A DNA stretch of 64,000 bases, from assembly GCA_002686265.1 (NCBI GenBank), contig NZBA01000042.1, positions 10,363-74,362 of the forward strand. The letters run 5' to 3'. The DNA comes from Planctomycetota bacterium (GTDB lineage: Bacteria; Planctomycetota; UBA1135; GCA-002686595). Below, in pieces: positions 7,683 to 54,137 of this stretch. Under the pieces are notes generated by a model that made no database searches, was not told where the DNA came from, and saw nothing but the letters and a program-made list of their open reading frames with translations. Position 1 is the first letter of the stretch; each line of letters begins with the position of its first letter. Made by a program: the position numbers and the translations under genes.

Positions 7683-10076
7683 TCACCGAATCCCAAAGCA
7701 GAAAAGGCGCTCCCGGGTGCGCAGCCAGATGCGGCCGTCTTCGAGGGCCGGCGTGGCGTGGCACAGCTCGCCGAACTCGGCCCGGTGCAGAACGGCGAGT
7801 TCCCTGCCGCACTTCAGTACCGAGAGGATGCCCGACTCGCTCAGCAGGTAGACCTTGTCGTCCGCGGCGACCGGAGATGCGAAGTAGTCGTCGATCCCTT
7901 CCGCCAGACGCTCGCGTCCGAACCGCTCTCCCGTGTCGGGATCGATGAGCGTCAGTAACCCGCCCTGGTCGCTCAGCATGTAGTAGACGCCGCCGTGGAC
8001 CAAGGGAGACGGTAGCTGAGGCGGGGAGCGGTAGGCGCGCCAGCGCACGCCGCTTGCGGTCAGGTCCCCGCTGCCGCCTAGCCGGATCGCCATGGCGCAG
8101 TTCGCGGAGGTGAAGAAGGCGCGCGTGAGCTCCCACTCGTGCGCGTCGAGCCCCCCGTCCCCGTCGAGGTCGATGAAGCGGAAGGAGTCTGCCACCTTCG
8201 GCTCGCTGATCTCGTCAGCGGAGAGCTGTCCGTCGCCGTTCGCGTCCATCTCTCCGACAGCCCGCGCGAAGGCTGCGAGCTCGATCTGGTTGCCGTGGTC
8301 GTTCAGCGGCAAGGAGTAGCCGTGGACCCAGACCGTGTCGTTCAGCACAACCGGGACGGACTTCATCTCCGCCGGCAGGCCGTTCACCCACCAGCGCCGC
8401 TCGCCCGTCGTGAGGTCGTAGGCGTCGAGTTGGAAGGACCCCGCCACCAGGACCTCCGTGTCCGCCCCTGCGCGCGTGTAGAGGGCCGGCGTGCAGTGCC
8501 CGCTGACCGCTCGGGGGCGTTCCTGTCTCCAGAGCTCGCGGCCATCTTCCTCCGCGAGGGCGACGACGAAGGAGCCCCTCGTCTGGTCGCAGGCGATGAC
8601 GACCGCGCCTTCGTGCAGGATCGGCGAGGCGCCCATGCCGTAGATGTTCACGAAAGGGCCCATGGGCACGCGCCAGCGCTCGGCGCCGTCGTGGTCGTAG
8701 GCCAGGACGCCGAACTCGTCGAAGAAGACCACGATCGTCTCCTCCCCCGCGGTGGCGCTCGCGGCCGCCGGCCCGTTCTTGGAGTGGAAGCTCGTGCGCC
8801 GCGGGCGCGGGGCCTCGCGCCGCCAGCGCGTCTCGCCCGTCTCGCGGTCGAGCGCGTAGGTGAACAGGCGCTCCTCCGCGACACCCGTCAGCACCACGAG
8901 ATCGCGGGTCAGGACGGGCGAGGAGCGCCCCACGGCCAGTGGGCGCTCCCAGACCACGTTCGTCTGTGGGCCGAGGGCCTGAGGGAAAGGGCCGCCCTGG
9001 GCGACGCCTGTGCCGTTGGGTCCGCGGAAGCCGTTCCACGCGGCCCGGCGACCACGACTGCGATCGAGGCGCGCGAGTCGCCCACCGGCGCCGGCGGCCC
9101 ACGCCGTTCCGTCCGGCGCGCACGAGACCGCGTGGAAGCCGAGCTCGGAGAAGCGGCGCCAGGAGTCTCCGCCGTCGGTGGACACGTCGCTCCCAGTGGG
9201 GCCGACGGCGACCAGCGTCGGTCCCGGACGCCCGGCGAGGAGCTCGACGCAGGAGCGGTAGCCGCAAGGCGGCGCACCGCCGGTGGCGCACCAACTCGCG
9301 CCACCGTCGTCGCTGACGGCGATGTTCGCCCGGCGCAGGTCCTCGCGCGTGTAGTCGCCGCCGACGGCGATGAGGCGATCCCGCGGGCCGATCGCGAGGG
9401 AGTAGATGCCCGTCGATTTCGTCTCCGAGAGCACGGGCGTTCGGGCGGCTGTCCAACTCGCGCCACCGTCTCTCGTGCGCAGGACGCGGGCGCCGTGGGG
9501 GCCGCCCAAGCCGATCCAGGCCTCCGCGCTCCCGCGCACGCGCAGGCTGCTGCCGCTGGCCGCGAAGCCGGCCTCGCCCTCGGGTGAGACGGGCAGCGCC
9601 CCCGGCTCGACCGAGCGCCAGCTCCGGCCTCCATCTTCGGTCACGACGACCGCCACCCGACCGTCGATCGGATCACTGAAGGCCAGCCCCCGCTGCTCGT
9701 CCCAGAAGGCCATCCCGTCGAAGAACGCCGCCTCGTCGTCGTGCTCGAAAGCCCGCGCCCAGCTGGCCCCGCCGTCCTTCGTGCGGCAGATCCGTGCCGG
9801 CTGGCCCGCACTCACGACGACCGCCGTTTCGGCGTCGAAGGCATGGATGTCCCGCCAGTCCAGGGACTCGTCCCCGGGGATCGCACAGCGCTCCCAGTGC
9901 ACCCCGTCGACGGTACGCAGGATTGTGCCGTCGGCGCCGCTGGCCCAGCACACCCGCTCGTTCACAGCGCATAGGCCGCGCAGGCTGGCTTCACAGCCAC
10001 TCTCCTGAGGCGTCCAGACGAGAGTCTCGCCGGGCGCGGCGATAGACAGGAGCAGCAGGGATGCTCGGAGGTTCAT
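7683..10076 (-). CDS. Secreted fusion: BNR/Ycf48-like propeller, PQQ/BamB-like propeller and two EF-hands
   Basis: Signal-like N-terminus MNLRASLLLLSIAAPG. Repeated xTxDGGxSW motifs (TKDGGASW, TEDGGRSW, TRDGGASW, SDDGGASW, STDGGDSW). Then PQQ-like repeats (ETGETRWR, DGRELWR, TGERRWW). EF-hand loops DANGDGQLSADE and DLDGDGGLDAHE. Confidence 0.75.
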   Translation of the reverse strand: MNLRASLLLLSIAAPGETLVWTPQESGCEASLRGLCAVNERVCWASGADGTILRTVDGVHWERCAIPGDESLDWRDIHAFDAETAVVVSAGQPARICRTKDGGASWARAFEHDDEAAFFDGMAFWDEQRGLAFSDPIDGRVAVVVTEDGGRSWRSVEPGALPVSPEGEAGFAASGSSLRVRGSAEAWIGLGGPHGARVLRTRDGGASWTAARTPVLSETKSTGIYSLAIGPRDRLIAVGGDYTREDLRRANIAVSDDGGASWCATGGAPPCGYRSCVELLAGRPGPTLVAVGPTGSDVSTDGGDSWRRFSELGFHAVSCAPDGTAWAAGAGGRLARLDRSRGRRAAWNGFRGPNGTGVAQGGPFPQALGPQTNVVWERPLAVGRSSPVLTRDLVVLTGVAEERLFTYALDRETGETRWRREAPRPRRTSFHSKNGPAAASATAGEETIVVFFDEFGVLAYDHDGAERWRVPMGPFVNIYGMGASPILHEGAVVIACDQTRGSFVVALAEEDGRELWRQERPRAVSGHCTPALYTRAGADTEVLVAGSFQLDAYDLTTGERRWWVNGLPAEMKSVPVVLNDTVWVHGYSLPLNDHGNQIELAAFARAVGEMDANGDGQLSADEISEPKVADSFRFIDLDGDGGLDAHEWELTRAFFTSANCAMAIRLGGSGDLTASGVRWRAYRSPPQLPSPLVHGGVYYMLSDQGGLLTLIDPDTGERFGRERLAEGIDDYFASPVAADDKVYLLSESGILSVLKCGRELAVLHRAEFGELCHATPALEDGRIWLRTRERLFCFGIR

Positions 10077-10330: not shown

Positions 10331-11167
10331 ATGCAACCCTCTTCACGCCGGCTCCTCGCCGGTCTGCTTCTTCCGCTCCTCTCCCCTCTTGCTGCTTCCG
10401 ACATCGTCGAAGTCTGGCAGCAAGGAATGGGTTTCAACTCCAACGACCTGACCATCAACGTCGGCGATACGGTGCGTTGGGTCTGGACGAGTGACTTCCA
10501 CACGGTCACCGAGGGGACCGACGCGAACCTCGACGGGAGCGAAGCGTTTCACTCGCTGCTGTCCTCGGGGAACCAGGTCGTCGAAGTCACCTTCGACGCG
10601 GCGTTTCTTGCGCAGTGGCCGCGACCCGGTAACCGCTACGACTACGTGTGCATCCCGCACATCACCAATGGGATGGTTGGCGTGATTACCGTGGAGGACG
10701 GGCCGGGCGCGACGTTCTGCTATTGCGACGGTACCGGCGCCGCCCCGCCTTGCGGGAACTACGGCCAGGGGGGCGCGGGTTGCAGGAACTCGACTTTCAT
10801 GTACGGGGCCATCCTGTTCTCGAACGGCTCGAGCAGCGCATCGGTCGATGACCTCGGCTTCCAGGCCGTGCACGTGATCCCGAGCCAGCCCGCGTTGCTC
10901 TTTGCCGGGACTACCGCACTCAACGGTGGGAACGGGGTGCCGTTTGGCGACGGCCTGCGCTGCGCCGGGGGCACGGTCGTGCGCCTTGGCGTTCAGGTTC
11001 CCAACACCGCCGGCGTCGCGAACTGGGGCGCGGGGCTGGGCGCTACCGGTGGCTGGTCCTCGGGAGACACGCGCATGTTCCAGGTCTGGTATCGGGACCC
11101 CAGCGGCGGCTGGTGTGGAAGCGGATTCAACTTGACCACCGGGAATCAGGTCACGTTTACCCCCTGA
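10331..11167 (+). CDS. Secreted type-1 (blue) copper protein with C-terminal six-Cys module
   Basis: Start at MQPSSRRLLAGLLLPLLSPLAAS (signal peptide, ATG 10331). Plastocyanin-type ligands FHTV ... YVCIPHITNGM (C-x2-H-x4-M). The C-terminal 150 aa carry the FGDGLRCAGG / WYRDP / FNLT module shared with three other genes. Confidence 0.75.
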   Translation: MQPSSRRLLAGLLLPLLSPLAASDIVEVWQQGMGFNSNDLTINVGDTVRWVWTSDFHTVTEGTDANLDGSEAFHSLLSSGNQVVEVTFDAAFLAQWPRPGNRYDYVCIPHITNGMVGVITVEDGPGATFCYCDGTGAAPPCGNYGQGGAGCRNSTFMYGAILFSNGSSSASVDDLGFQAVHVIPSQPALLFAGTTALNGGNGVPFGDGLRCAGGTVVRLGVQVPNTAGVANWGAGLGATGGWSSGDTRMFQVWYRDPSGGWCGSGFNLTTGNQVTFTP

Positions 11168-11206
11168 GCGCCCACTCCGGGCTTGCCGCCGGGAACGGGC
11201 GGTCGG

Positions 11207-11238
11207 GGCGGGCGCCCGAACGGAGCGGGGCGCCCGCC
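11207..11238. terminator. Perfect 11-bp inverted repeat between convergent genes (candidate bidirectional terminator)
   Basis: GGCGGGCGCCC, then a 10-nt loop, then GGGCGCCCGCC. It lies between the stop at 11167 (+) and the stop at 11259 (-). No U-tract, so function is inferred from position only. Confidence 0.4.
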
Positions 11239-11258
11239 GCTGATCTCGGTGTGTTCGA

Positions 11259-12464
11259 CTAGAAGTCGATCTGTACGCCGCTCGACAGGTTGAACGTAGC
11301 CCCGCAGGGAGAGAGCGCGGGGTCGCGGTACCAACCCTGGTAGTAGCGGGTTTCACCGGGAGCGCCGCCGCCACCGTTGCCCTGGATCGTGCCGGAGAGG
11401 TTCGTATCCCCGTTGGAGTCCATCACCTCGACGTTGAGTCGGACCACCGAGCCCCCCGCACAGCGCAGGCCGTCACCGAACACGATGCCGGCGCCACCAT
11501 TGACGGCGTTGACGCCCTGGAAGAACAGCATCGGCTGGTTGGGCGTGCCCTGGGTGAAGGCGAGGCCGGACGCGGCTACCGTTCCGGTGGCCTCGAGGTG
11601 TGCACCGCCCGCGAAGGTCCCGTTACCGCAGCCATTCCCGGCCGCTCCCGTGTTTCCGCAGGGACAGGTCGTGCCGGTGCCGTCGCCGAAGCAGTAGGTC
11701 GTCCCGATCGCGGGCCCGGCCTCCACCTTGATGGCGATCTCCATCTCGGCGTTCAGGGAGGTCGTGTTCTCGAGGACGTTGCCCGCGCCGGTCGCGAGAT
11801 CGAAGGTGGCGAAGACGCCCGTCCCGCCGCCCGTGTAGATCGTCGCGTAGAGCGTGTCGTCCGACCAGTCGAAGTCCATGCCTTGAGCGAAGTTCGCTGC
11901 GTGGCCCGTGGGTCCGATCAGCGTCCCGCCGCCCGAGGCCGGATCGATCGACAGGAGCGAGTCGATCGAGATGCTGTGGCCGTACAGGTTGCCCAGGCTG
12001 TCGCACGCGATGTCGATGATGATCCCGGTCCAGATGGGCCCGACCAGCGTGAAGGTGCCGGTCGTGATGTCGCCCGCGTAGAGCTGGGAGATCCCGACCG
12101 CGGCGTCGTACTCGCAGACATACCAGGTTGAGCCGTCGGGGGACGCCGTCAGACCGGTCACGGCTGCTGCCGGGCCGCTGGTGAGCCCGAGGGAAGTGAA
12201 GACGCCGGTCGTGAGGTCGAACGTGCCGTAGTTCAGCGTAGCGTAGTCGATACCCCAGAGCGTCGTCGCCGTGGCGTCGAAGTCGATGGCGTAGATCGGG
12301 TCCTGATTCGTTGCGATTTGGGTGTAGTTCCCGACGAAGCTGGCCGTGTCGGACGTGAAGAAGAAGCTGGTCCGCACGTCGAGGCCGTAGATCGTTGACT
12401 GTGCCCGCGCGCTCGTTGCGGCGAGAGCAAGGGTTGCGATGGACAGGAGGAAGAAACGGTTCAT
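11259..12464 (-). CDS. Secreted repeat (propeller-like, possibly DUF4394-like) protein with C-terminal six-Cys module
   Basis: Start at MNRFFLLSIATLALAATSARAQ (ATG 12464) preceded by AGGGAG. The N-terminal part has repeated IYGLD / LWGIDY / LYGHS strands. The C-terminus has CFGDGTGTTCPCGN ... FGDGLRCAGG ... WYRDP ... FNLSSG. Confidence 0.7.
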   Translation of the reverse strand: MNRFFLLSIATLALAATSARAQSTIYGLDVRTSFFFTSDTASFVGNYTQIATNQDPIYAIDFDATATTLWGIDYATLNYGTFDLTTGVFTSLGLTSGPAAAVTGLTASPDGSTWYVCEYDAAVGISQLYAGDITTGTFTLVGPIWTGIIIDIACDSLGNLYGHSISIDSLLSIDPASGGGTLIGPTGHAANFAQGMDFDWSDDTLYATIYTGGGTGVFATFDLATGAGNVLENTTSLNAEMEIAIKVEAGPAIGTTYCFGDGTGTTCPCGNTGAAGNGCGNGTFAGGAHLEATGTVAASGLAFTQGTPNQPMLFFQGVNAVNGGAGIVFGDGLRCAGGSVVRLNVEVMDSNGDTNLSGTIQGNGGGGAPGETRYYQGWYRDPALSPCGATFNLSSGVQIDF

Positions 12465-19327: not shown

Positions 19328-19446
19328 CTGTCTGATCGATCTTTGGAAAAAGTGCTCGTCTGACAGCATCCCGAAGGATCCATGAGGGATCGGAGCGGGG
19401 CACAAGCAAGCGGAGAAGAGAGAACTACCGCCTCCGGGTGACCTGT

Positions 19447-19522
19447 TGGAGCGGGCGACGGGACTCGAACCCGCGACATCAAGCTTGGGAAGCTTGCACT
19501 CTACCAACTGAGTTACGCCCGC
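19447..19522 (-). tRNA. tRNA-Gly (anticodon CCC), CCA encoded
   Basis: The reverse complement is GCGGGCG TA ACTC AGTTGGTA GAGT G CAAGC TTCCCAA GCTTG ATGTC GCGGG TTCGAGT CCCGT CGCCCGC T CCA. It folds with a 7-bp acceptor stem, 4-bp D stem, 5-bp anticodon stem, loop TTCCCAA, T-loop TTCGAGT and discriminator U. Length is 76 nt. Confidence 0.9.
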
Positions 19523-19638
19523 AGGGTCACCCTGGGAGGACGGGTCGCACAGCGTACAGGCAAGACCGCCTGCCATCAATGCGGCAGTGCTGTATCCTGC
19601 CCGCAACCCACCTCCACCACCACTCCCGGACCTCTCCC

Positions 19639-20913
19639 ATGATGATCGCCTCCACAATCCTGCTCTGCGCCGCCCCCTGCGGGCCTCTTCAGGAGCCCAA
19701 CACCCTCAGCGAAGTCGAGCGCGCCGCGGGCTGGACCTTGGCTTTCGACGGCCGGACGCACGCCGGTTGGCGCCGGTTTCGGGGCGAGGGCTTCCCCGAG
19801 GGGGGCTGGGCCGTGGAGGAGGGCTCCCTGCACAAGCTGGCGGGGGCAGGCGGTGGAGATCTGGTCAGCGAGCGAGGGTACCAGGACTTCGAGTTCGCAT
19901 TTGAGTGGAAGGTCGCCTCCGGTGCCAACAGCGGGATCATGTACCGCGTCAGCGAGGAGCGCGGCAACACCTGGGAGACGGGGCCGGAGTACCAGATCCT
20001 CGACGACACCGGGCACCACGACGGTCGCCGCGCCGAGACCTCGGCGGCTTCCCTGTACGCGATGATCGCCCCGGAGCCGAGCGTCCTCAAACCCGTGGGC
20101 GAGTGGAACAGTGGTCGCATCCTCGTCGTCGGCAACCACGTCGAGCACTGGCTCAACGGTGCCCGTGTCGTCGCCTTCGAGCTGCACGACGAGGCCTGGA
20201 AGGAGCTCATCGAGGGTTGCAAGTTCAAGAACATGCCCGGCTTCGGCAAGGAGCGCCGCGGGCACATCGCCCTGCAGGACCACGGCGACGACGTGTGGTA
20301 CCGCAACCTGAAGATCCGAGACCTCGACTTCGACGACGAGCGAGCCGGTACCTTGTTCAACGGTCGGGACCTGGCCGGCTGGACACACCATCTCGACGGA
20401 GAGGTTGACGCATCGGCGGTGTGGAGTGTCAGCGAGGAGGGCGTGCTCGTTTGCCGTGGCCGGCCGATCGGCTACCTGCGCACCGAGGACGATCACGAGA
20501 ACTTCGTCCTGCGGCTCGAGTGGCGCTTCAACCCGGTGACGAAGGAGGCCGGCAACAGCGGTGTCCTCCTGCGCCAGCTCGGTCCCGACAAGGTCTGGCC
20601 CCGCAGTATCGAGGCCCAGCTCCAGAGCGGTGCGGCCGGGGATTTCTGGAACATCGACGCCTTTCCGATGAAAGTCGTCGAGGAGCGTACGAGTGGGCGC
20701 AACACCCGTAGGACCGGAACCAACGAGTCACCGATCGGTGAGTGGAACCGCTACGAGATCACCGCTTGGAAGGGAAACGTCGTCCTGCGCGTGAACGGCG
20801 AGGTCCTCAATCAAGCCTGGGACTGTCTGGAAACGCCGGGGAAGATCTGCCTCCAATCGGAGGGAGCGGAGATCCACTTCCGGAGGATCGCACTCACCTC
20901 CCTGGGTTCCTGA
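19639..20913 (+). CDS. Secreted protein with two DUF1080 (3-keto-disaccharide hydrolase-like) domains
   Basis: Start at MMIASTILLCAA. Two copies of the pattern GW..F......W.V.DG.L ... GDL.S...Y.DFEL..EW....GNSG...R ... EYQILD ... GEWN...I...G....H.LNG ... G.I.LQ.HG..V.FRNI.I. Confidence 0.85.
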   Translation: MMIASTILLCAAPCGPLQEPNTLSEVERAAGWTLAFDGRTHAGWRRFRGEGFPEGGWAVEEGSLHKLAGAGGGDLVSERGYQDFEFAFEWKVASGANSGIMYRVSEERGNTWETGPEYQILDDTGHHDGRRAETSAASLYAMIAPEPSVLKPVGEWNSGRILVVGNHVEHWLNGARVVAFELHDEAWKELIEGCKFKNMPGFGKERRGHIALQDHGDDVWYRNLKIRDLDFDDERAGTLFNGRDLAGWTHHLDGEVDASAVWSVSEEGVLVCRGRPIGYLRTEDDHENFVLRLEWRFNPVTKEAGNSGVLLRQLGPDKVWPRSIEAQLQSGAAGDFWNIDAFPMKVVEERTSGRNTRRTGTNESPIGEWNRYEITAWKGNVVLRVNGEVLNQAWDCLETPGKICLQSEGAEIHFRRIALTSLGS

Positions 20914-20922
20914 TGCGGGAGC

Positions 20923-22029
20923 TCAGGGTAGCCAGATGATCTCCATTCCGTTGGTCAGGTTGAAGGTCGTGCCGCACGGGCTGGTTTGCGGATCGCGATA
21001 CCACAGCTGGTAGCGCTTGGTGCCGCCGACTGATACGCCACCCTGTTCGGCGATGCTGACCGTCGTGCTCGAGGCGCCACTCGCGTCGGCCACCCGCACC
21101 TGCAGGCGAACCACGTTGCCGCCGGCACAGCGCAGTCCGTCTCCGAAGACCACGCCCGCGCCGCCGTTCACCGCATTGTCGCCCTGGAAGTAGAGACCGG
21201 GCTGGTTGGGAGCCAGCTGCGAACCCTCGAGGGCGAGGTCCTCGGTGGTCACGCTGCTCGATCCGCTCGCCCCCAGCAAGGCTCCCAGTCCCGTGCCGTT
21301 CATGCAGCCCTCGCCCGAGCCGCCGAAGTTCCCGCAGGGGCAGGAAGCACTACTGCCGTCCCCGAAGCAGAACGCCTGCTGGGGCGTGATCGAGTCGGCG
21401 ATGATGTCGCCCATCAACGTGAAATCGAAAGTGATCCCCGTCGAGGGCTCGACGAACTGCAGGAGATGGAACTGGGGAGAGTCGATATGGACCGTTCCGT
21501 TGGGGAGCACGGTGAACTGACCGAAGACGACTTGCGAGGTTCCCGAAACGCCGGCGAGGTCGTACTCGTAGGGAAACGTCCCGAGCAGAATGAAGTGCAC
21601 GACGCCGGCGGAGAATTCGAACGTGAACTCACCCTGGAAGCTGCCGTCGGAGGTCGTCGGGTCTCCGAAGTCCAGCGGAAGGGACGTCACTCCGCACACG
21701 ACCCCCTCGAAGTGAAACTCGACCAGCGGGGGCGCGCCGGGGATCGGGTTGGGAAAGTAGCCCATGATGTCGGGAGTCCAGGCGACGGTTCCGTTCTCGA
21801 AGGTACCGGAGCTCACGTTCCCGCTGGCGTTCATGCCCAGCTCCGCGAACTGCACCCCCGACCACTCGAATTCGTTGTCGATGACCGGGACGGCGCTGGC
21901 GTTCATGGCCGTCATCGTCCACTCCCACTGGGACTGGGCGCTATCCATCCAGAGTGTGGTGTTCTGGGCTTGGGCCGCCGTCGTCGTGAGAGTGATGACT
22001 CCGAGGACGCTGATGAGGGTGTGTTTCAT
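20923..22029 (-). CDS. Secreted 368-aa protein: unknown N-domain plus C-terminal six-Cys module (paralogue A)
   Basis: Signal peptide MKHTLISVLGVITLTTTAAQAQ. AAGGAAGGA lies 7 nt before the ATG. C-terminus: CFGDGSSASCPCGNFGGSGEGCMNGT ... NQPGLYFQGDNAVNGGAGVVFGDGLRCAGG ... YQLWYRDPQTSPCGTTFNLTNG. Confidence 0.75.
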   Translation of the reverse strand: MKHTLISVLGVITLTTTAAQAQNTTLWMDSAQSQWEWTMTAMNASAVPVIDNEFEWSGVQFAELGMNASGNVSSGTFENGTVAWTPDIMGYFPNPIPGAPPLVEFHFEGVVCGVTSLPLDFGDPTTSDGSFQGEFTFEFSAGVVHFILLGTFPYEYDLAGVSGTSQVVFGQFTVLPNGTVHIDSPQFHLLQFVEPSTGITFDFTLMGDIIADSITPQQAFCFGDGSSASCPCGNFGGSGEGCMNGTGLGALLGASGSSSVTTEDLALEGSQLAPNQPGLYFQGDNAVNGGAGVVFGDGLRCAGGNVVRLQVRVADASGASSTTVSIAEQGGVSVGGTKRYQLWYRDPQTSPCGTTFNLTNGMEIIWLP

Positions 22030-22094: not shown

Positions 22095-23201
22095 TCAGGG
22101 AAGCCAGAAGATCTCCATCCCGTTGGTCAGGTTGAAGGTCGTGCCGCACGTGGTCGTCTGGGGGTCGCGGTACCAGAGCTGGTAGCGCTTGGTGGAGCCG
22201 GCCGCGACGCCGCCCTCGGCCCCGACGTCAATCGTGGTGTTCGAGGCGCCGCCGGAGTCGGCGGCGCGCACCTGCAGGCGGGCGACTCCGCCGCCGGCGC
22301 AGCGCAAGCCGTCGCCGAAGGTGACGCCCGCGCCGCCGTTCACGGCGTTGTCGCCTTGGAAGTAGAGTCCGGGCTGACCGGGGACCAGCTGGGAGCCGTG
22401 CAGGACGAGATCGCCGTCGGAGATGCTCGTGCTGCCACTCGCGCTGAGCACGGCGCCCTGGAGGGTGCCGTTCATGCAGCCCTCGCCCGTCCCTCCGAAG
22501 TTCCCGCAGGGACAGGTGCTCGCGCTGCCGTCACCGAAGCAGAAAGCCTGCTGCGTGATGAGCGAGTCCGCAACGATGTCCCCCCACAGGTCGATCGTGA
22601 ACGTGATTCCCGTGCTGGGCTCGGTGACGACCGCGTTGTGGCTCTGGAACGAGTCGAGGTGGATGGTCCCGCCGGGCAGGACGGTGAACTGCCCGAAGAC
22701 CACCTGGGAGTTCGTCGCCAGGCCGGTGAGGTCGAAGTCGTAGGGGAATCCGCCCAGGATCACCAAGTGGACGATGCCGCTGGTGAACACGTACTCCGAG
22801 TCGCCCTGGAAGCTCCCGTCGGAGGTAGCGGGATCACCGAAGTCGAGCGGAAGGGACTGGGCGGAGAGCTCGACGCCGTAGATCTGGAAATCGACGAGGT
22901 TGGGGAGCCCCGGGATCGGGTTCGGGAAGAAGCCCTCGATGTCGGGGAAGATCGTGACCTCCGAATCGATGAACTGACCCGAGCTCACGTTGCCGCTGGC
23001 GTTGGTCCCCAGCTCGATGTACAGGGGGCCGTACAGATCGAACTCGTTGTCGATCAACGGCACCGCGTTCTGATTGAGTGCCGAGGCGTCCCACTCCCAT
23101 GCGGAGGCCGCGGAGTCGATCCACATGGTCGTGTTCTGGGCCAGGGCGGCGGGGGCGCCGAGGGCGAGCAGGGCGGAGAAGGTGGCGATCGAGGTCTTCA
23201 T
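22095..23201 (-). CDS. Secreted 368-aa protein: unknown N-domain plus C-terminal six-Cys module (paralogue B)
   Basis: Signal peptide MKTSIATFSALLALGAPAALAQ. Same length and colinear with 20923..22029 (QNTTxWxDSA, IDNEF, NASGNVSSG, FPNPIPG, LPLDFGDPxTSDGSFQG, SQVVFGQFTVLP, EPSTGITF). It carries the same C-terminal module. Confidence 0.75.
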   Translation of the reverse strand: MKTSIATFSALLALGAPAALAQNTTMWIDSAASAWEWDASALNQNAVPLIDNEFDLYGPLYIELGTNASGNVSSGQFIDSEVTIFPDIEGFFPNPIPGLPNLVDFQIYGVELSAQSLPLDFGDPATSDGSFQGDSEYVFTSGIVHLVILGGFPYDFDLTGLATNSQVVFGQFTVLPGGTIHLDSFQSHNAVVTEPSTGITFTIDLWGDIVADSLITQQAFCFGDGSASTCPCGNFGGTGEGCMNGTLQGAVLSASGSTSISDGDLVLHGSQLVPGQPGLYFQGDNAVNGGAGVTFGDGLRCAGGGVARLQVRAADSGGASNTTIDVGAEGGVAAGSTKRYQLWYRDPQTTTCGTTFNLTNGMEIFWLP

Positions 23202-45980: not shown

Positions 45981-47555
45981 TCAGGCCTCGCTTGCCGTGA
46001 CGCCGCCGGTGCCGGAGCCGGGTTGGGTCTGGCCGGTGGCGCGCACGTAGACGTCGAACAGCTTCTGCTCGAGAGGGAGGCGATACTCCCCGCGCCTCAG
46101 GCGCCAGCCGGCGATGCGCGAAAGCAGCTTGCGCATCCACGGCGGCCCCTCGCGCACGTGCTGGTCGTAAATCGCCGCGGTGTTGTTGTAGCGCTGCCAG
46201 GTGTGCCGCACCGAGGGCGGGATGGGTGTGTTGTGCGAGTTGTACTTGTACTCGAAGCACGCCCCCCAGTCGTGGAAGTCCGTCGGCGGCTCGTAGCCGA
46301 GCTCGACCGCAGCCTTGAAGTCCTCGGTTCCCGGGATCGGCCGGAACGGGTAGACCTCCGAACCCGCCAGGGGAAACGCGTGCTTGACCGAGGCCGCCTT
46401 GCGCAGGGTCTCTTCCATCGACTCGCGGGTCTCGCCGGGGTAGCCGATGATCCAGAAGGTCCCGGGCACGATGTTGCGCCGGGCGAGCGCGCCGATCGCC
46501 TTGGGGATGTTCTCGATCCCGATGAACTTCTTGATGCGCTCCTGCATCTCCTTCGTGCCCGTCTCGGCACCGAGCCAGAGCAGGTGGCAGCGCGAGGCCT
46601 CGAGCAGGTCGAGCGTCTCTTCGCGGTAGCGCATGATCGTCTCGATCTCGATGGTGCCGTTCCAGTGGATCGGTACCTCGAGGTCGATCAGCCCCTGGCA
46701 GAAGGCCGTCGTGCGCTTCTCGGCCACGCCGAAGTTCGCGTCCTGGAAGCGCAGCACGTCGAACCGGAAGCGCTCCTGGAGTTCCGCGATCTCCTCGGCC
46801 AGGGCCCGGCCCTCGATCGCCTTCCAGCGGCGCCCGGTGACGAGGGGGCTGCAGCAGAAAGTGCAGGGTTCCGGGCAGCCGAAGCTCGAGAAATGACTGA
46901 ACGCCCGCGGCGGGTTGTTCGGCGTCCAATCGCCGGGCAGGGGGAAGCGGTGGCGGACCTTGAGGTGCGTCGGCTTGACCTGCAGCTCGGCGTAGCGCTC
47001 GAATTCCAACAGGTGCCAGGGAACCGAACCGAACTTGTCGAACCCGACCACGGGTTGGTTGGCGGTGTAGACGATCTGGCCGTCGCGCTCGATCGCGAGG
47101 CCGGGGACTTGCTCTAGGTCCTCACCGCTGTCGAGCGCCGCGACGATCTGTTGGAAGGTGATCTCGCCCTGGCCGATGCAGACGGCGTCGGCGATGCCCT
47201 CGCGCAGGTACATCTCGGGGATGACGCTGGGAAACCACCCGCCCCAGATGATCGGCAGGTCGGGGAAGCGCTCGCGGACGGCGCGCGCGGTCACGTAGCC
47301 GTCGTAGACCTGGTAGCCGAGGATGCAGGAGCTGGCGAACAAGAGCGCGCCGTCGCAGGCCTCGAGCACCTTCTCCATGTAGTCGGCGTCGACCATCGCG
47401 TCAATCAGGACGATCTCGTAGCCCTCGGCGGCGGGCCCGATGGCGATCTGCAGCAGCTCGAGCGGCAGGAGGTCGGCGCTGAACATCTCGCCCCGCTCCG
47501 GATCGGCCCGGTGGGGGAGGAAGAGGACCAGCTTGGGTTTCTTGGACTGGATCAC
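45981..47555 (-). CDS. B12-binding domain radical SAM protein (paralogue 1)
   Basis: The GTG start at 47555 was chosen by alignment with the paralogue (VIQSKKPKLVLFLPH vs MIQRTKRIVLFLPH). It has an N-terminal Rossmann-like B12-binding region and the radical SAM cluster motif SSFGCPEPCTFCCSP (CxxxCxxC). Confidence 0.85.
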   Translation of the reverse strand: MIQSKKPKLVLFLPHRADPERGEMFSADLLPLELLQIAIGPAAEGYEIVLIDAMVDADYMEKVLEACDGALLFASSCILGYQVYDGYVTARAVRERFPDLPIIWGGWFPSVIPEMYLREGIADAVCIGQGEITFQQIVAALDSGEDLEQVPGLAIERDGQIVYTANQPVVGFDKFGSVPWHLLEFERYAELQVKPTHLKVRHRFPLPGDWTPNNPPRAFSHFSSFGCPEPCTFCCSPLVTGRRWKAIEGRALAEEIAELQERFRFDVLRFQDANFGVAEKRTTAFCQGLIDLEVPIHWNGTIEIETIMRYREETLDLLEASRCHLLWLGAETGTKEMQERIKKFIGIENIPKAIGALARRNIVPGTFWIIGYPGETRESMEETLRKAASVKHAFPLAGSEVYPFRPIPGTEDFKAAVELGYEPPTDFHDWGACFEYKYNSHNTPIPPSVRHTWQRYNNTAAIYDQHVREGPPWMRKLLSRIAGWRLRRGEYRLPLEQKLFDVYVRATGQTQPGSGTGGVTASEA

Positions 47556-47580
47556 GGGGCGGGGGAGGAGGCGCGGGCGC

Positions 47581-49173
47581 TCAGGCCGGCGCGTTGGGGG
47601 TGACGCCGGAAGTCTGATCGACCGCCAACACATCTTCCTGCATCTTCCGCCCGGTCAGGCGCACGAAGACGTGGAACAGCTTCTGCTCGATAGGGGCGTT
47701 GAAGTTGTTGTTCTTCAGGCGCCACCCCGAGATCCGGCGCATTGCATTGCGCACGAAACCAGCCCCTTCCTTGGCCAAGCCGTCGTAGAAGGTCGAGGTG
47801 ACCCCGTAGCGCTTCCAGCGGCGGATGACGTCGGCGGGCAGGCTCGTGTCGTTGATCTCGTACTTGTACTCGAGGCAGCCGCCCCACTCCTCGAGGCTGC
47901 GCGGCGGCTCGTAGCCCGAAGCGACGGCGGTCTGGAAGTCCTCGGTCCCGGGGATCGCGCGGAAGGGGAAGATGTCGCTGGGGGAGTTTGGAAACAGGTG
48001 CTTGATCTTGGCCGCGAGGGTGATCGTGGCGTTCATCGATTCCTCGCTCTCGCCGGGGTAGCCGATGATCCAGGAGACCCCGGACTGGATCCCGCGCTCG
48101 TTGAGCCGTCGGAGCGACTTGACGAGATCGCGCTCGAGCTGGATGTCCTTCTTGATCCGCTCCTGCTGCGCCTGGCTACCCGCCTCCGCGCCGAGGGCGG
48201 CCATGTGGAAGCGCGACTCGGCCAAGAGGTCCAGGGAAGCGGGCTTGTAGCGGGCGATGGTCTCGACCTCGTAGGTCCCGTTCCACCAGAAGGGCCGTCC
48301 GGCGTCGATCAGCGCCGAGCAAAAGACGTTCGAGCGCTTCTCGGCCACGCCGAAGTTGGCGTCCTGGAAGCGCAGCACGTTGAAGTCGAAGCGTTCGTGG
48401 CACTCGAGGATGCGTTCGGCCAGCAGATCGCCGGGGATGGCCTTCCAGCGTCGGTTCGTCACCCCCGGGCTACAGCAGAACGTGCAGGGCTCGGGACAGC
48501 CGAAGCTCGAGTAGTAGCTGAAACCGCGCAGCTGCGTTCCCGGCTTCATGTCCCAGGGATCGGCGTACTTGTGGCGGACCTTCCAGTCTCCCGAATCGTT
48601 CTGCAGGGCGACGTACTCCTCGAAGTCGATTAGGTGCCAGGGGCAGTCGGGGATCTGGTCGAAGCCGACGACGGGGCGGTGGGGCGCATAGACGGGATTG
48701 CCGTCGCGCTCGACGACCAAGCCGGGGACCTCGGCCAGGTCCTCGCCGCTCTCGATGGCGGCCAGTGCGTCGCGGAAGGTCAGCTCGCCTTGGCCGAGGG
48801 CGACGGCGTCGGCGACGCCCTCGGACAGGAAGCGCTCGGGCAGGACGCTGGGGAACCATCCGCCCCAGAGGATCGGGAGGTCGGGGAAGCGCTCGCGCAC
48901 CGCCCGCGCCACCGCCGCGCCGTGCGCGACCTGGTGGCCGAGGATGCACGAGGTCGAGAAGCACAGGGCGCCGTCGCACAGTTCCATCAGCCGCGCCATG
49001 TAGTCGGGGTGGACCATGGCGTCCACGATCACGCACTCATAGCCGTCCCGGTCGGGGATGGCGGCGATCTGCAAGAGCTCGAGGGGCAGCAGATCCGCGC
49101 TCACCCGCACTCCCTGCGCCGGATCGGCCCGGTGAGGGAGGAACAGGACGATGCGCTTGGTCCGCTGGATCAT
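47581..49173 (-). CDS. B12-binding domain radical SAM protein (paralogue 2)
   Basis: MIQRTKRIVLFLPHRADP ... LPLELLQIAA ... ILWGGWFPSV ... SSFGCPEPCTFCCSPGVTNRRWKAI. It is colinear with 45981..47555 over its full length. Confidence 0.85.
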   Translation of the reverse strand: MIQRTKRIVLFLPHRADPAQGVRVSADLLPLELLQIAAIPDRDGYECVIVDAMVHPDYMARLMELCDGALCFSTSCILGHQVAHGAAVARAVRERFPDLPILWGGWFPSVLPERFLSEGVADAVALGQGELTFRDALAAIESGEDLAEVPGLVVERDGNPVYAPHRPVVGFDQIPDCPWHLIDFEEYVALQNDSGDWKVRHKYADPWDMKPGTQLRGFSYYSSFGCPEPCTFCCSPGVTNRRWKAIPGDLLAERILECHERFDFNVLRFQDANFGVAEKRSNVFCSALIDAGRPFWWNGTYEVETIARYKPASLDLLAESRFHMAALGAEAGSQAQQERIKKDIQLERDLVKSLRRLNERGIQSGVSWIIGYPGESEESMNATITLAAKIKHLFPNSPSDIFPFRAIPGTEDFQTAVASGYEPPRSLEEWGGCLEYKYEINDTSLPADVIRRWKRYGVTSTFYDGLAKEGAGFVRNAMRRISGWRLKNNNFNAPIEQKLFHVFVRLTGRKMQEDVLAVDQTSGVTPNAPA

Positions 49174-52349: not shown

Positions 52350-54137
52350 ATGCAGCTCCTCCTCGCCCACTCCGTTCTGTGCGCCCTCGCACCCCTTGCC
52401 GCGGACGTCTCCCCCGCGGGCGTCTCCCCCGCGGACGTCGATCTCGGCGGCCCGGTCCGCGTGCGCTACGCACCGCCGGTTCCCGAGGGAGAGCAACCCG
52501 TCGTGCTCGAGGAGGTCGTGATCCCCGAGGGCGAGGTCAAGCGCTTCCTGATCTATGGGACCTACCGTCCCGCCCTCGAGTGGCGCCGCATCCACGCGCT
52601 GATCGAGGACGAGATCCGCCTGCGCGCGGCCGAGGGCAAGGACGTCTCGCACCTCGTCGTCTCCGACGAGATGTTCGAGGCCCACTACGGCAAGAAGCTC
52701 GCCGAGTTCGTCGAGAAGTACCCGATGCTCGACATCGAGACCGAGATCTCCCGCGCATACCGCTCGCTGGCCTGGTACCGGCGCGAGCTGCGCCAGGAGA
52801 TGCTCTTCGACGCCGTCTTCGTGCCCGAGGACCAGGCGCAGTGGCCCGACCTGACCTTCGAGGCCCTGCGCCAGGAGGCCGGCGAGATCCTCATCGACGA
52901 CTTCCGCAAGAGCTACGAGCGGCGCACGACGTTTCTCACTGAGCAGCGCGCCGAGTGGCAGGCGAAGACCGACGCGGGCGAGGAGGCCGGTCCGAAGCCC
53001 GTGCTCCAGCCCGAGGACTCGATGTACCGCTCGATCCTGCGCCAGATCGTGCGCGACAACCTCTACAAGGTGGTCGACACCAAGACCGCTCTCACGGGTC
53101 TGTCGGAGGACCTGATCGCCACCATGGACTTCGACTGGGACGGACAGGCCGAGCTGACCGTCACCACCGCGGAGATCTGGAGCGATGTCGAGCTGATCGT
53201 CTCCCAGCAGGACGTGGACGACGCCCGCCAGTTCCTGGCCCTGGTCGAGGCGGCGCGCCAGCGCCTGGAGTACGAGGGCAAGTTGCTCTCCGATGAGGAG
53301 ATCGCCACCGAGCTCGAGGAGATCACCTCCAAGTTCCAGAGCGGCATGTTCGATCTGGGCCAGATCGCCATCGGCGGCCACCAGTTTCCCTCGGTCGAGG
53401 CCTACGGCGACTACTTCGGCCTGCACGAGTCGTACAAGCGTTCGATCGACGAGGACACCCAGGTCGCCCTGGGCGCGCAGCTTCCCGATTCCCTGCGCGA
53501 GCACCTGCACCAGGCCAACCACGTCATGGGGCTGGCGAAGGTCGACACGGAGGTGTTGCTCGTCGCGGCCTTCGACTTCGAGAACTACGAGTGGATCGAG
53601 GGCGGTTGGGACAAGGCACGCGCGAAGGCCGAGCGGCTGGTGGCGGAGATGCAACGCAACCAGGATGCCTTCGAGAAGAGCCAGGCCGGCGAGGCGATCG
53701 ATGGTGAGAACGCGCCCCTCGACCCGGTCACCTTCTGGCAACTGCTGATCGACGACCACTGTGACTTCTGGGATCCGCCCCCGCCGCAGCACGGGCGTCA
53801 GTCCACGGTGGGCTACAAGCAGAAGGGGCGTTTTGGAGAGCGCACGCGGAACGACCTGCGCTCCTTGATGTCGGAGAGCTCCTACCACCTCTTCCTGCGC
53901 GGTGAGCTCCTCACCGACCGCGTTTTCTTCGATCAGCCCGTGGGCGTGGTCGACGGCCCGCACAAGGGCTCCTTCGGTTACTACGTGACGAAGGTGCTGC
54001 GCCGCAGCGCCCCCTCGCGGCCCCTGAATACCAACGACCGGCGCCACATCGATCTCCTGCGGGACGATTACGCGCGCGTGAGCTTCGTCGCCTACGCCCA
54101 CGAGGCGCTCGGCGACACGGTGGTCGGCGGACGCTAG
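52350..54137 (+). CDS. Secreted SurA/PpiC-like chaperone / peptidyl-prolyl isomerase-like protein
   Basis: Signal peptide MQLLLAHSVLCALAPLAA. A long helical chaperone-like region. The C-terminal parvulin-like segment is VDGPHKGSFGYYVTKVL. Confidence 0.6.
   Translation: MQLLLAHSVLCALAPLAADVSPAGVSPADVDLGGPVRVRYAPPVPEGEQPVVLEEVVIPEGEVKRFLIYGTYRPALEWRRIHALIEDEIRLRAAEGKDVSHLVVSDEMFEAHYGKKLAEFVEKYPMLDIETEISRAYRSLAWYRRELRQEMLFDAVFVPEDQAQWPDLTFEALRQEAGEILIDDFRKSYERRTTFLTEQRAEWQAKTDAGEEAGPKPVLQPEDSMYRSILRQIVRDNLYKVVDTKTALTGLSEDLIATMDFDWDGQAELTVTTAEIWSDVELIVSQQDVDDARQFLALVEAARQRLEYEGKLLSDEEIATELEEITSKFQSGMFDLGQIAIGGHQFPSVEAYGDYFGLHESYKRSIDEDTQVALGAQLPDSLREHLHQANHVMGLAKVDTEVLLVAAFDFENYEWIEGGWDKARAKAERLVAEMQRNQDAFEKSQAGEAIDGENAPLDPVTFWQLLIDDHCDFWDPPPPQHGRQSTVGYKQKGRFGERTRNDLRSLMSESSYHLFLRGELLTDRVFFDQPVGVVDGPHKGSFGYYVTKVLRRSAPSRPLNTNDRRHIDLLRDDYARVSFVAYAHEALGDTVVGGR

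What the first reader, a model, noticed from the sequence alone, without database searches (positions are those of the whole stretch)
10331..12464. Unassigned six-cysteine C-terminal module (about 150 aa) on a blue-copper protein and on a propeller-like protein (convergent pair)
Four secreted proteins in this window end with the same module, while their N-terminal domains are unrelated. The consensus I read is C-[FY]-x-DG-x(3-6)-C-x-C-GN-x-G-x(2-3)-G-x-GC-x-N-[GS]-T ... NQP-x-L-[FY]-FQG-x-NA-[VL]-NGG-x-G-[VI]-x-FGDGLRCAGG-x-V-x-RL-x-V ... [YF]-Q-x-WYRDP-x(3,4)-CG-x(2)-FNL-[TS]-x-G, followed by about 6 residues to the C-terminus. The six Cys suggest three disulfides. Two N-x-[ST] sequons (after the fourth Cys and in FNL[TS]) are conserved in all four copies. 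Here the module follows a plastocyanin-type cupredoxin (10331..11167, module about 10715..11164) and a repeat/propeller-like domain (11259..12464). A C-terminal position on different cargo domains is the signature of a sorting, anchoring or surface-attachment domain. It has no TM helix and does not match PEP-CTERM, MYXO-CTERM, LPXTG or T9SS CTD motifs as I know them.
Basis: seen in the sequence. Interest (0 to 1): 0.65.

Follow-up and report, generated by a model that had tools for sequence, protein, structure and literature searches.

The report
Uncurated C-terminal anchor-like domain, Saltatorellus-clade Planctomycetota
Four secreted proteins in this window end in the same ~150-residue, six-cysteine beta-sandwich domain; it belongs to a very large, uncatalogued family confined to one little-studied planctomycete clade, and it sits where other bacteria put a cell-surface sorting or anchoring signal.

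Summary
Four signal-peptide proteins (A 10331..11167 +, B 11259..12464 -, C 20923..22029 -, D 22095..23201 -) end in one ~150-aa six-Cys module that is 47-76% identical between copies. The cargoes are a type-1 cupredoxin, a beta-propeller, and an orphan domain shared by the paralogues C and D. The module matches nothing in Pfam or NCBIfam at E<=1. It folds with high confidence (pLDDT 94.5) into a beta-sandwich with no close relative in the PDB. It is not a local duplication: 11,427 50%-identity cluster representatives match. In all 270 database proteins examined the module ends within 4 residues of the C-terminus, and none carries two full copies. Genomes carry at least about 20-26 loci each. 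At least 57 Pfam cargo families are attached to it. It occurs only in MAGs of the Saltatorellus clade of Planctomycetota. A homologous two-Cys form occurs in cultured Saltatorellus ferox Poly30. In B's propeller family the same junction is followed by this module, a PEP-CTERM tail or a dockerin. My best reading is a clade-specific C-terminal sorting/anchoring domain, comparable in logic to a T9SS CTD. This is inferred, because no partner machinery was found. A substrate-binding module remains a rival reading.

The parts
10331..11167 (+). Gene A: signal peptide (about 10331..10396), plastocyanin-type cupredoxin (about 10397..10705), six-Cys C-terminal module (10706..11164), stop codon.
   Evidence: ORF. 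The public gene call is 278 aa. PF00127 E 7e-11 on residues 27-122. Candidate copper ligands H57/C107/H110/M115. Module alignment.
10706..11164 (+). Module copy in A. It is the 'W-type' and has the variant Cys pattern 5, 7, 16, 26, 85, 136.
11259..12464 (-). Gene B, convergent with A across a 91-bp gap: signal peptide (12399..12464), beta-propeller related to DUF4394/DUF6923 (11706..12398), module (11262..11705).
   Evidence: ORF. Gene aa. AF2 pLDDT 91.6. Foldseek propeller hits. Homologues carry PF14339/PF21959. The pair is syntenic in Arabian10_MAG_46 (L053).
11262..11705 (-). Module copy in B. The protein ends ...QIDF, directly after the conserved aromatic residue.
20923..22029 (-). Gene C: signal peptide (21967..22029), orphan ~195-aa cargo domain (21382..21966), module (20926..21381).
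   Evidence: No Pfam hit. The cargo has only 3 database relatives.
22095..23201 (-). Gene D, tandem paralogue of C: signal peptide (23139..23201), cargo (22554..23138), module (22098..22553).
   Evidence: Syntenic pair at 88% identity in Arabian10_MAG_46 (L001).

Best explanation
The module is a clade-specific, folded C-terminal sorting/anchoring domain (a 'CTD').

Proposed mechanism:
1. Proteins carrying it are exported across the inner membrane by Sec. Signal peptides are visible; export itself is inferred.
2. The module folds in the oxidising periplasm into a disulfide-stapled beta-sandwich. The fold is predicted; the disulfides are inferred from the strictly conserved count of six Cys.
3. 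Its conserved face (FGDGLRCAGG, Q-x-WYRDP, FNL[ST]xG and the fixed ...[WF]-x-P C-terminus) is recognised by a common partner of the Saltatorellus-clade envelope. That partner delivers the cargo to the cell surface, or keeps it there. This step is inferred.

Whether the module is then cleaved and the cargo attached covalently (as with T9SS or PEP-CTERM), or the module stays on as a non-covalent anchor (as with dockerin or SLH), is open.

The six-Cys form is one subfamily of a wider superfamily. It equals the two-Cys core plus an N-terminal Cys-rich loop and Cys136. The two-Cys form is present in cultured Saltatorellus ferox.
For: 1. Position. The module ends 0-2 residues before the stop in 112 of 114 locus ORFs, and the exceptions are ORF-parsing artefacts. 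It ends within 0-4 residues of the C-terminus in 120 of 120 database hits and within 0-3 in all 150 best cluster representatives. None of 254 proteins has two full copies.
2. N-terminal A-x-A-type signal peptides are present on all four window proteins and on most relatives.
3. Expansion and cargo diversity. 11,427 cluster representatives match. At least 562 genomic copies occur in about 25 species-level MAGs, with at least about 19-26 loci in single MAGs. Among 116 cargo parts there are 57 Pfam families: FG-GAP, GBD_T9SS_assoc, C-type lectin, LamG, propellers, cupredoxins, M43/M12 peptidases, esterases. This is a cross-section of a surface proteome or secretome, not one enzyme class.
4. Anchor swap. 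Homologues of B's propeller end at the same junction (...LNAEMEM.V..) in one of four ways. They carry the six-Cys module (25 of 120), a two-Cys version of it, a PEP-CTERM-type tail (21 by the tail regex; P0371 scores 25 bits on PF07589 against a cutoff of 20.7), or a dockerin (P0365 scores 24.9 on PF00404 against 22.9).
5. The module tracks the lineage rather than the cargo. B against S. ferox Poly30_29380: cargo 55% identical, module 35%. Within this genome, C against D: module 76%, cargo 60%.
6. The count of six Cys is maintained although positions move (5/7, 7/9/14), and extra Cys mostly appear in pairs. This fits an extracytoplasmic disulfide-bonded domain.
7. A cupredoxin is useful only if it is retained at the envelope, which favours anchoring over release (inference).
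Against: - No partner was identified. No gene family other than further module-bearing proteins and sulfatases recurs next to module genes from different genomes in 80 loci. Nothing resembling a sortase, exosortase or secretion system lies in the 64-kb window.
- At 150 residues it is larger than any known sorting signal, and a conserved beta-sandwich face could equally bind an external ligand.
- No cleavage motif can be demonstrated. The junction is only [PV]-G-T-x-[YF]-C.
- There are no experimental data for any member.
- Only the best 150 of 11,427 representatives were inspected, so internal copies among weaker hits cannot be excluded.
Confidence: 0.5

Rival explanations
1. The module is a substrate- or ligand-binding domain (CBM- or lectin-like). 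It tethers diverse secreted enzymes and binding proteins to a common external polymer or particle surface, and it has no role in sorting.
For: It is a beta-sandwich. Weak Foldseek neighbours include accessory beta-sandwich domains of glycoside hydrolases, glycopeptidases and LPMO-like proteins, with TM <= 0.46 and E >= 2e-3. Conserved aromatic and polar residues (Q125, W127, Y128, R129, D130, N141) lie on consecutive positions of one strand, so one set must be solvent-exposed. Some cargo are hydrolases (esterase, peptidases, endonuclease).
Against: It was never seen N-terminal, internal or in full tandem copies, unlike typical CBMs. Most cargo are not polymer-degrading enzymes: propellers, lectins, cupredoxins. 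In B's cargo family the slot is otherwise filled by PEP-CTERM or dockerin, which are anchors and not CBMs. The module follows the lineage rather than the cargo.
Confidence: 0.2
2. The module is a secretion-assisting or stabilising pro-domain, such as an intramolecular chaperone or a PPC-like pre-peptidase C-terminal domain. It would be removed after export without engaging a dedicated sorting machine.
For: It has a C-terminal position on secreted proteins, a compact disulfide-rich fold, and a short junction made of small residues.
Against: Cargo folds are extremely diverse and mostly autonomous. About 25 residues are near-invariant across hundreds of paralogues, which argues for a shared external partner rather than a cargo-specific chaperone. 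There is no match to PPC (PF04151) or related models.
Confidence: 0.1
3. The module is a self-processing or membrane-inserting domain: either a Hint/BIL-type autoprocessing domain that starts at the junction Cys, or a small outer-membrane beta-barrel anchor with a C-terminal aromatic beta-signal.
For: A near-invariant Cys lies 1-2 residues after the cargo junction ([YF]-C-x-G-D-G). The C-terminus has an alternating hydrophobic pattern with W or F at position -3, or as the last residue.
Against: No conserved His, TxxH or terminal HN motif is present. Foldseek returns no intein/Hint structure and no OMP barrel among its best 50 matches, and returns Ig/Fn3-like sandwiches instead. The strands are short (3-10 residues) and the domain is Gly- and Cys-rich.
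Confidence: 0.03

Closest known systems
Type IX secretion C-terminal domains (type A TIGR04183/PF18962; type B TIGR04131)
   Same: Both are folded beta-sandwich domains at the extreme C-terminus of Sec-exported proteins. Both occur once per protein and in dozens of paralogues per genome, on very diverse cargo. The cargo here includes the Pfam domain named GBD_T9SS_assoc (10 of 116 cargo parts). Sequence subtypes coexist in one genome (W-type and T-type), as type A and type B CTDs do (the T9SS side of this comparison is from background knowledge).
   Different: There is no sequence match at E<=1. The module is about 150 aa, against about 80-100 for T9SS CTDs (from background knowledge). It has six Cys. 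No T9SS CTD structure appears among the best 50 Foldseek matches. The host is a Saltatorellus-clade planctomycete, outside the phyla known to have T9SS (from background knowledge). No machinery is known.
PEP-CTERM / exosortase sorting signal (PF07589, TIGR02595)
   Same: It occupies the identical slot on the same cargo family: homologues of B's propeller end in IP[AE]P..-TM-RRRR tails at the same junction. Both are lineage-restricted and highly paralogous.
   Different: PEP-CTERM is a tail of about 25 residues with a TM helix and a basic end. The module is a 150-aa soluble fold with no TM segment. No PEP-CTERM-like tail was seen among 5,960 ORFs in about 1 Mb of six-Cys-clade loci, although that sample is biased.
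Dockerin type I (PF00404)
   Same: Both are C-terminal modules on varied secreted cargo that mediate attachment through a protein partner. Dockerin also replaces the module on B-type propellers (P0365; P0368 and P0370 by sequence).
   Different: Dockerin is about 60-70 aa, a duplicated EF-hand-like Ca-binding fold, and mostly helical (from background knowledge). There is no similarity in sequence or fold.
MYXO-CTERM and related Cys-containing C-terminal signals (Haft, bioRxiv 10.1101/2023.06.07.544157)
   Same: They are C-terminal, carry invariant Cys, and are lineage-specific.
   Different: They are short tripartite signals processed by myxosortases. They are not folded domains, and there is no model match.
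Two-Cys form of the same superfamily, in Saltatorellus ferox Poly30 and related MAGs
   Same: The beta-sandwich core is homologous: hhalign probability 99.3%, E 4.5e-20 over columns 27-152. It has the same strictly C-terminal position, the same NST and N-x-[ST] motifs, and the same Q-x-W-[YH]-R-D motif.
   Different: It lacks the N-terminal Cys-rich loop and Cys136. It is found in a different set of genomes, although 9 ORFs in six-Cys loci are of this type. It is equally unannotated: the proteins are named 'hypothetical', 'uncharacterized' or 'DUF4394 domain-containing'.

Membership tests
T9SS C-terminal domain (Por_Secre_tail, TIGR04183/PF18962; type B TIGR04131) | Sequence match to the curated CTD models | tested here: not met
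   No Pfam or NCBIfam hit on the module at E<=1 for any of the four proteins.
T9SS C-terminal domain (Por_Secre_tail, TIGR04183/PF18962; type B TIGR04131) | Extreme C-terminal position on Sec-signal-bearing, diverse cargo, with many copies per genome | tested here: met
T9SS C-terminal domain (Por_Secre_tail, TIGR04183/PF18962; type B TIGR04131) | Ig-like beta-sandwich of about 80-100 aa, superposable on solved CTDs | tested here: inconclusive
   The model is a beta-sandwich, but it is 150 aa. The best PDB TM-score is 0.46, to an adhesin Ig-like repeat, and no CTD structure is among the best 50 matches.
T9SS C-terminal domain (Por_Secre_tail, TIGR04183/PF18962; type B TIGR04131) | Co-occurrence with the T9SS machinery (SprA, PorV, PorU, GldKLMN) | not testable with these tools
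   Whole genomes could not be queried for these proteins. None is present in the 64-kb window. The host belongs to the Saltatorellus clade.
T9SS C-terminal domain (Por_Secre_tail, TIGR04183/PF18962; type B TIGR04131) | CTD cleaved and cargo attached to the surface | not testable with these tools
   This needs proteomics.
PEP-CTERM/exosortase | PEP motif, TM helix and Arg-rich end within about 25 C-terminal residues | tested here: not met
   No PF07589 or TIGR02595 hit. The module ends ...[WF]-x-P with no hydrophobic helix.
Dockerin type I | Duplicated Ca-binding EF-hand-like segment (PF00404) | tested here: not met
   No hit. The model is all-beta.
MYXO-CTERM and other Cys-containing tripartite signals | Short C-terminal signal with an invariant Cys followed by a TM helix | tested here: not met
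   No NCBIfam hit and no TM segment.
Hint/BIL autoprocessing domain | Nucleophile at the N-terminal junction, plus TxxH and a terminal H-N | tested here: not met
   The junction Cys is present, but no His is conserved anywhere in 220 modules. No Hint fold is among the best 50 Foldseek matches.
Plastocyanin/azurin cupredoxin (cargo of A) | PF00127 match above the gathering score, and a type-1 Cu ligand set H, C, H, M | tested here: met
   42.9 bits against a cutoff of 21.2. H57, C107, H110 and M115 with C-x2-H-x4-M.
DUF4394/DUF6923 beta-propeller (cargo of B) | Pfam match PF14339/PF21959, and a propeller fold | tested here: inconclusive
   B itself has no Pfam hit at E<=1. Its homologues at 40-60% identity carry PF14339/PF21959 around threshold. 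The fold is clearly a beta-propeller.
Carbohydrate-binding module | Demonstrated glycan binding; variable position and copy number in multidomain enzymes | tested here: not met
   Position and copy number are invariant: C-terminal and single. Binding itself is not testable here.

The most novel reading that the evidence does not exclude
The module is the cargo tag of a so far undescribed outer-membrane translocation and surface-attachment pathway specific to the Saltatorellus clade (OM190/UBA1135-type Planctomycetota). It would be a functional analogue of the T9SS CTD system that evolved independently. The fixed aromatic C-terminus possibly engages an Omp85-type or other dedicated translocon, and the two conserved N-x-S/T motifs are possibly modification sites.
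Probability: 0.3. Interest if true: 0.85.

Novelty: new variant of a known kind. Interest (0 to 1): 0.68.

Why it matters
How planctomycetes move their large complement of surface and secreted proteins across the outer membrane is essentially unknown. The Saltatorellus clade is cell-biologically unusual: it changes shape and has a fragile outer membrane (bioRxiv 10.1101/817700).

A family with more than 11,000 representative sequences, absent from Pfam and NCBIfam, would give three things:
- a ready-made marker for the predicted surface proteome or secretome of this clade, which is abundant in marine, lake and activated-sludge metagenomes;
- a handle for finding the cognate machinery by phylogenetic profiling;
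- a testable system, because a homologous form exists in the cultured S. ferox Poly30.

At a minimum it deserves a curated domain model, so that thousands of 'hypothetical proteins' gain an architecture.

Tried and rejected
- **Conserved neighbours.** I clustered 1,085 flanking ORFs from 80 loci. Across different genomes only sulfatases recur, apart from a 770-aa neighbour that itself carries a two-Cys-like module. A radical-SAM neighbour turned up in one syntenic group. There is no candidate processing enzyme.
- **Window annotation through public gene calls.** The neighbours are housekeeping genes and no secretion or sortase genes are present. One look-up failed because of start-codon ambiguity.
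- **Fold searches.** Searches against PDB and BFVD gave only generic Ig/Fn3-like matches with TM < 0.5. A PDB sequence-profile search found nothing meaningful.
- **Homologues of the C/D cargo.** The search for a second anchor-swap example found only 3 close relatives, so it was uninformative.
- **Literature.** Searches on planctomycete C-terminal sorting, T9SS in Planctomycetota, DUF4394 and Saltatorellus found no description of this domain.
- **Outer-membrane barrel and Hint/BIL readings.** Both were considered and rejected; see the rival explanations.
- **PEP-CTERM tails in six-Cys-clade loci.** None was found, but the sample is biased towards module loci.
- **The PEP-CTERM-tailed homologue's contig (L325).** No module lies within +/-10 kb, which is not informative.
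- **Model coordinates.** They are not returned by the tool, so Cys pairing and surface conservation could not be mapped.
Full report
**1. The observation**

A six-frame search for the core motifs finds exactly four copies in the 64-kb window:
- A, 10331..11167 (+)
- B, 11259..12464 (-), convergent with A
- C, 20923..22029 (-)
- D, 22095..23201 (-), in tandem with C

The public record carries the same gene calls. That record is GCA_030743855.1, contig JASLRR010000016.1.

All four proteins start with A-x-A-type Sec signal peptides. All four end in a 148-153-residue module that aligns without difficulty. Pairwise identity is 47-76%, and 59 columns are invariant.

- C and D are paralogues over their whole length: cargo 60% identical, module 76%. 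There are three cargo types, not four.
- A has its second Cys at module position 7 rather than 14.
- Only the second sequon is conserved throughout the six-Cys family (section 4).

**2. The cargoes**

- **A** is a plastocyanin/azurin-family cupredoxin. PF00127 scores 42.9 bits against a cutoff of 21.2. Candidate type-1 ligands are His57, Cys107, His110 and Met115.
- **B** has no Pfam hit of its own. Its homologues carry DUF4394 (PF14339) and DUF6923 (PF21959). The AlphaFold2 model of full-length B (pLDDT 91.6) matches YVTN, YWTD, TolB and NHL beta-propellers at Foldseek E about 1e-9. 'Propeller-like' is therefore confirmed.
- **C and D** share an orphan ~195-aa domain with only three database relatives.

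**3. The module is unassigned and has a generic fold**

hmmscan of the four proteins against Pfam-A and NCBIfam (release of June 2026) gives no hit on the module at E<=1. This also serves as a negative test for PEP-CTERM, MYXO-CTERM, LPXTG and both T9SS CTD models.

With a 69-sequence alignment, AlphaFold2 gives a confident model: pLDDT 94.5, pTM 0.89. It is an all-beta domain of about nine strands preceded by a Cys-rich loop.

Foldseek finds no match at E<=1e-3 in either the PDB or BFVD. The best TM-scores are 0.46-0.48, and the matches are generic Ig/Fn3-like sandwiches such as adhesin extender repeats, accessory domains of glycosidases and phage fibre domains. A profile search of PDB sequences finds nothing.

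**4. Family anatomy**

Statistics come from 220 modules.
- **Cysteines.** Cys16, Cys26, Cys86 and Cys137 are essentially invariant. The other two Cys occupy positions 5 or 7 and positions 7, 9 or 14. Positions 7 and 14 are mutually exclusive in 211 of 220 modules, so the total stays at six in 174 of 220. Additional Cys mostly appear as pairs (87+124, 63+117). This is the bookkeeping expected of structural disulfides in an extracytoplasmic domain. The pairing itself could not be read because model coordinates are not returned.
- **Near-invariant segments.** These are F-G-D-G-L-R-C-A-G-G, Q-x-W-Y-R-D-P and F-N-L-[ST]-x-G.
- **C-terminus.** It is fixed as G-[LYV]-E-[VIL]-[TV]-[WF]-x-P-COOH.
- **Sequons.** N-x-[ST] at FNL[ST] is present in 217 of 220 modules. 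The first motif, N-[SG]-[ST], is present in 156 of 220.
- **Junction.** The junction to the cargo is short, [PV]-G-T-x-[YF]-C, with no low-complexity linker.
- **Subtypes.** Two sequence subtypes exist: a W-type with W107 and W117 (about one third) and a T-type. They coexist in one genome. In this window A is W-type and C and D are T-type.

**5. Size and distribution**

- A profile search of 1.84 billion 50%-identity cluster representatives finds 11,427 proteins at E<=1e-3, 7,956 at E<=1e-10 and 2,074 at E<=1e-30.
The two best-80 lists come from about 25 MAGs. All are labelled Planctomycetota, apart from a few labelled only as (uncultured) bacterium and one labelled Paceibacteria that looks mis-binned.
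- Single MAGs contribute at least about 19 loci (HK-STAS-PLAN-24) to 26 loci (binchicken_co65_457) in those two lists alone.
- Sources are marine water columns, lakes and activated sludge.
- No source gives any of these proteins a name that refers to the module; nearly all are 'hypothetical protein'.

**6. Architecture rules**

- The module ends 0-2 residues before the stop codon in 112 of 114 locus ORFs. The apparent exceptions are artefacts of stop-to-stop ORF parsing.
- It ends within 0-4 residues of the C-terminus in 120 of 120 database hits, and within 0-3 in all 150 best representatives.
- None of 254 proteins carries two full copies. One ORF (L047) has a partial extra copy in front of the terminal one.
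- Most relatives have an N-terminal signal peptide.
- The cargo parts of 116 proteins hit 57 Pfam families. They include FG-GAP repeats (13), GBD_T9SS_assoc (10), C-type lectin (7) and LamG (4). Various propellers, cupredoxin (3), M43 and M12 peptidases, esterases, arylsulfotransferase and legume lectin also occur.

**7. Anchor swap**

This is the most informative result. Among the 120 best homologues of full-length B, nearly all share the propeller, which ends in ...LNAEMEM.V.... After that junction they continue in one of four ways.
- The six-Cys module: 25 proteins.
- A divergent version with two Cys: most of the 70 proteins that my script left in its 'other' class, judged by reading their tails.
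- A PEP-CTERM-type tail, IP[AE]P(G/S) plus a hydrophobic helix plus RRRR: 21 proteins by the tail regex. P0371 passes Pfam's PEP-CTERM gathering score (25.0 against 20.7).
- A dockerin: P0365 passes PF00404 (24.9 against 22.9). P0368 and P0370 end in dockerin-like repeats by sequence.

The module therefore occupies the slot that in other lineages holds a recognised sorting or anchoring device. The Pfam domain named for its association with T9SS cargo (GBD_T9SS_assoc) is also a frequent cargo here.

**8. A wider superfamily and a cultured host**

The two-Cys version is homologous to the six-Cys module over columns 27-152: hhalign probability 99.3%, E 4.5e-20. It lacks the N-terminal Cys-rich loop and Cys136. 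It keeps N-S-T, the G-x-L-C motif, Q-x-W-[YH]-R-D, S-N-F-[ST] and a terminal ...[VI]-x-F. It has no Pfam match either.

Species-representative genomes contain 428 confirmed copies of the two-Cys form. Three of the listed loci are in the complete genome of cultured Saltatorellus ferox Poly30. Two of the encoded proteins are Poly30_29380 (WP_145198425.1) and Poly30_15980 (WP_145195975.1). The sources name them 'hypothetical protein', 'DUF4394 domain-containing protein' and 'Uncharacterized protein'.

The genome sets in the best-80 lists for the two forms do not overlap. However, nine ORFs in six-Cys loci score better with the two-Cys profile.

**9. Who carries it**

I used the window's BipA as a marker.
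- It is 89-90% identical to BipA in Fu_MAG_107 and Arabian10_MAG_46. Arabian10_MAG_46 also holds the syntenic A/B and C/D pairs, and Fu_MAG_107 holds C/D-type genes.
- It is 63-72% identical to a block of Planctomycetota MAGs and to all three cultured Saltatorellus-clade species: S. ferox (67%), Engelhardtia mirabilis (68%) and Rohdeia mirabilis (67%).
- The next hits drop to about 52% (mostly Firmicutes).

The organism therefore belongs to the Saltatorellus clade. The 'Saltatorellota' preprint (bioRxiv 10.1101/817700) equates that clade with SILVA OM190 and the GTDB classes UBA1135, UBA8108 and GCA-002687715. It describes these bacteria as shapeshifting and as having a fragile outer membrane.

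**10. Interpretation**

Six lines of evidence point the same way.
- The module is strictly C-terminal and occurs once per protein.
- It lies behind Sec signal peptides.
- Each genome holds dozens of copies.
- The cargo looks like a cross-section of a secretome.
- On the same cargo family it is interchangeable with PEP-CTERM and with dockerin.
- It co-varies with lineage rather than with cargo. B against its S. ferox orthologue: cargo 55% identical, module 35%. C against D within this genome: module 76%, cargo 60%.

Together these are the comparative signature of a C-terminal sorting/anchoring domain recognised by a common, lineage-specific partner. A retained cupredoxin also makes more sense than a released one.

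What is shown is the domain, its fold class, its distribution and its architecture. What is inferred is export, disulfide formation, recognition by a partner, and surface delivery or retention. No partner was found in the window or next to 80 related loci. This does not contradict the model, because T9SS and exosortase cargo genes are also scattered (from background knowledge). It does leave the mechanism unproven.

The main rival is a ligand-binding (CBM- or lectin-like) module. A conserved exposed face fits that reading equally well. The invariant position and copy number, the cargo spectrum and the anchor swap argue against it.

Hint-type autoprocessing and outer-membrane-barrel readings fail on motifs and fold.

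**11. Comparison with known systems and novelty**

In logic the module most resembles a T9SS CTD. It is not a member of that family. There is no model match. It is longer. It has six Cys. No solved CTD appears among the best 50 Foldseek matches. The host lies outside the phyla known to have T9SS. It also fails the definitions of PEP-CTERM, MYXO-CTERM, LPXTG and dockerin.

I rate it as a new variant of a known kind, namely a folded C-terminal sorting/anchoring domain. There is a realistic chance, about 0.3, that it marks an undescribed envelope-sorting pathway.

Its size (more than 11,000 representative sequences), its absence from the curated libraries, and the existence of a cultured host for the sister form make it worth following up.

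Noticed in passing
window 19447..19522 (-): tRNA-Gly(CCC). It lies between the DUF1080 gene and the upstream genes, and it explains the tRNA-like translation at the start of the mechanical ORF 19438..20913.
   Followed up: yes
window 7683..10076 (-): A 797-aa protein, apparently secreted, directly upstream of gene A. It has faint BNR/PSII_BNR hits, a PQQ_2 (BamB-like) propeller and faint EF-hand hits. It does not carry the module.
   Followed up: partly
window 45981..47633 and 47581..49173 (-): Two tandem B12-binding radical SAM genes next to a glycosyltransferase and a large sulfatase. Three small genes without Pfam hits lie on the other side of them. This may be a modification cluster.
   Followed up: no
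window 52350..54137 (+): A 595-aa protein with a signal-peptide-like N-terminus, high GC3, no Pfam hit and no module.
   Followed up: no
L097, L102, L202, L205, L261: MAGs labelled 'Candidatus Paceibacteria', 'Bradymonadia' and 'Paracoccaceae' carry Saltatorellus-clade module genes. The 'Paracoccaceae' MAG also has a BipA 68% identical to the window's. These labels probably reflect mis-binning or mislabelling in the public records.
   Followed up: partly
L047 1246..3450 (+): The only case seen of a partial second module copy (profile positions 2-111), directly in front of the terminal full copy.
   Followed up: partly
six-Cys modules (e.g. window 20926..21381) and two-Cys modules (e.g. L208): Both N-x-[ST] motifs are conserved across the superfamily. 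N-S-T is invariant in the two-Cys alignment A7 and S-N-F-T in its narrower subset A8. FNL[ST] is present in 217 of 220 six-Cys modules. Whether these are structural turns or modification sites is unknown.
   Followed up: partly
L005, L007, L010, L037 (e.g. L037 1716..4025): A conserved ~770-aa neighbour of one module-gene family has no Pfam hit, and in three of the four loci (L005, L010, L037) it itself ends in a weak two-Cys-type module (29-47 bits). Both forms can therefore coexist in six-Cys genomes.
   Followed up: partly
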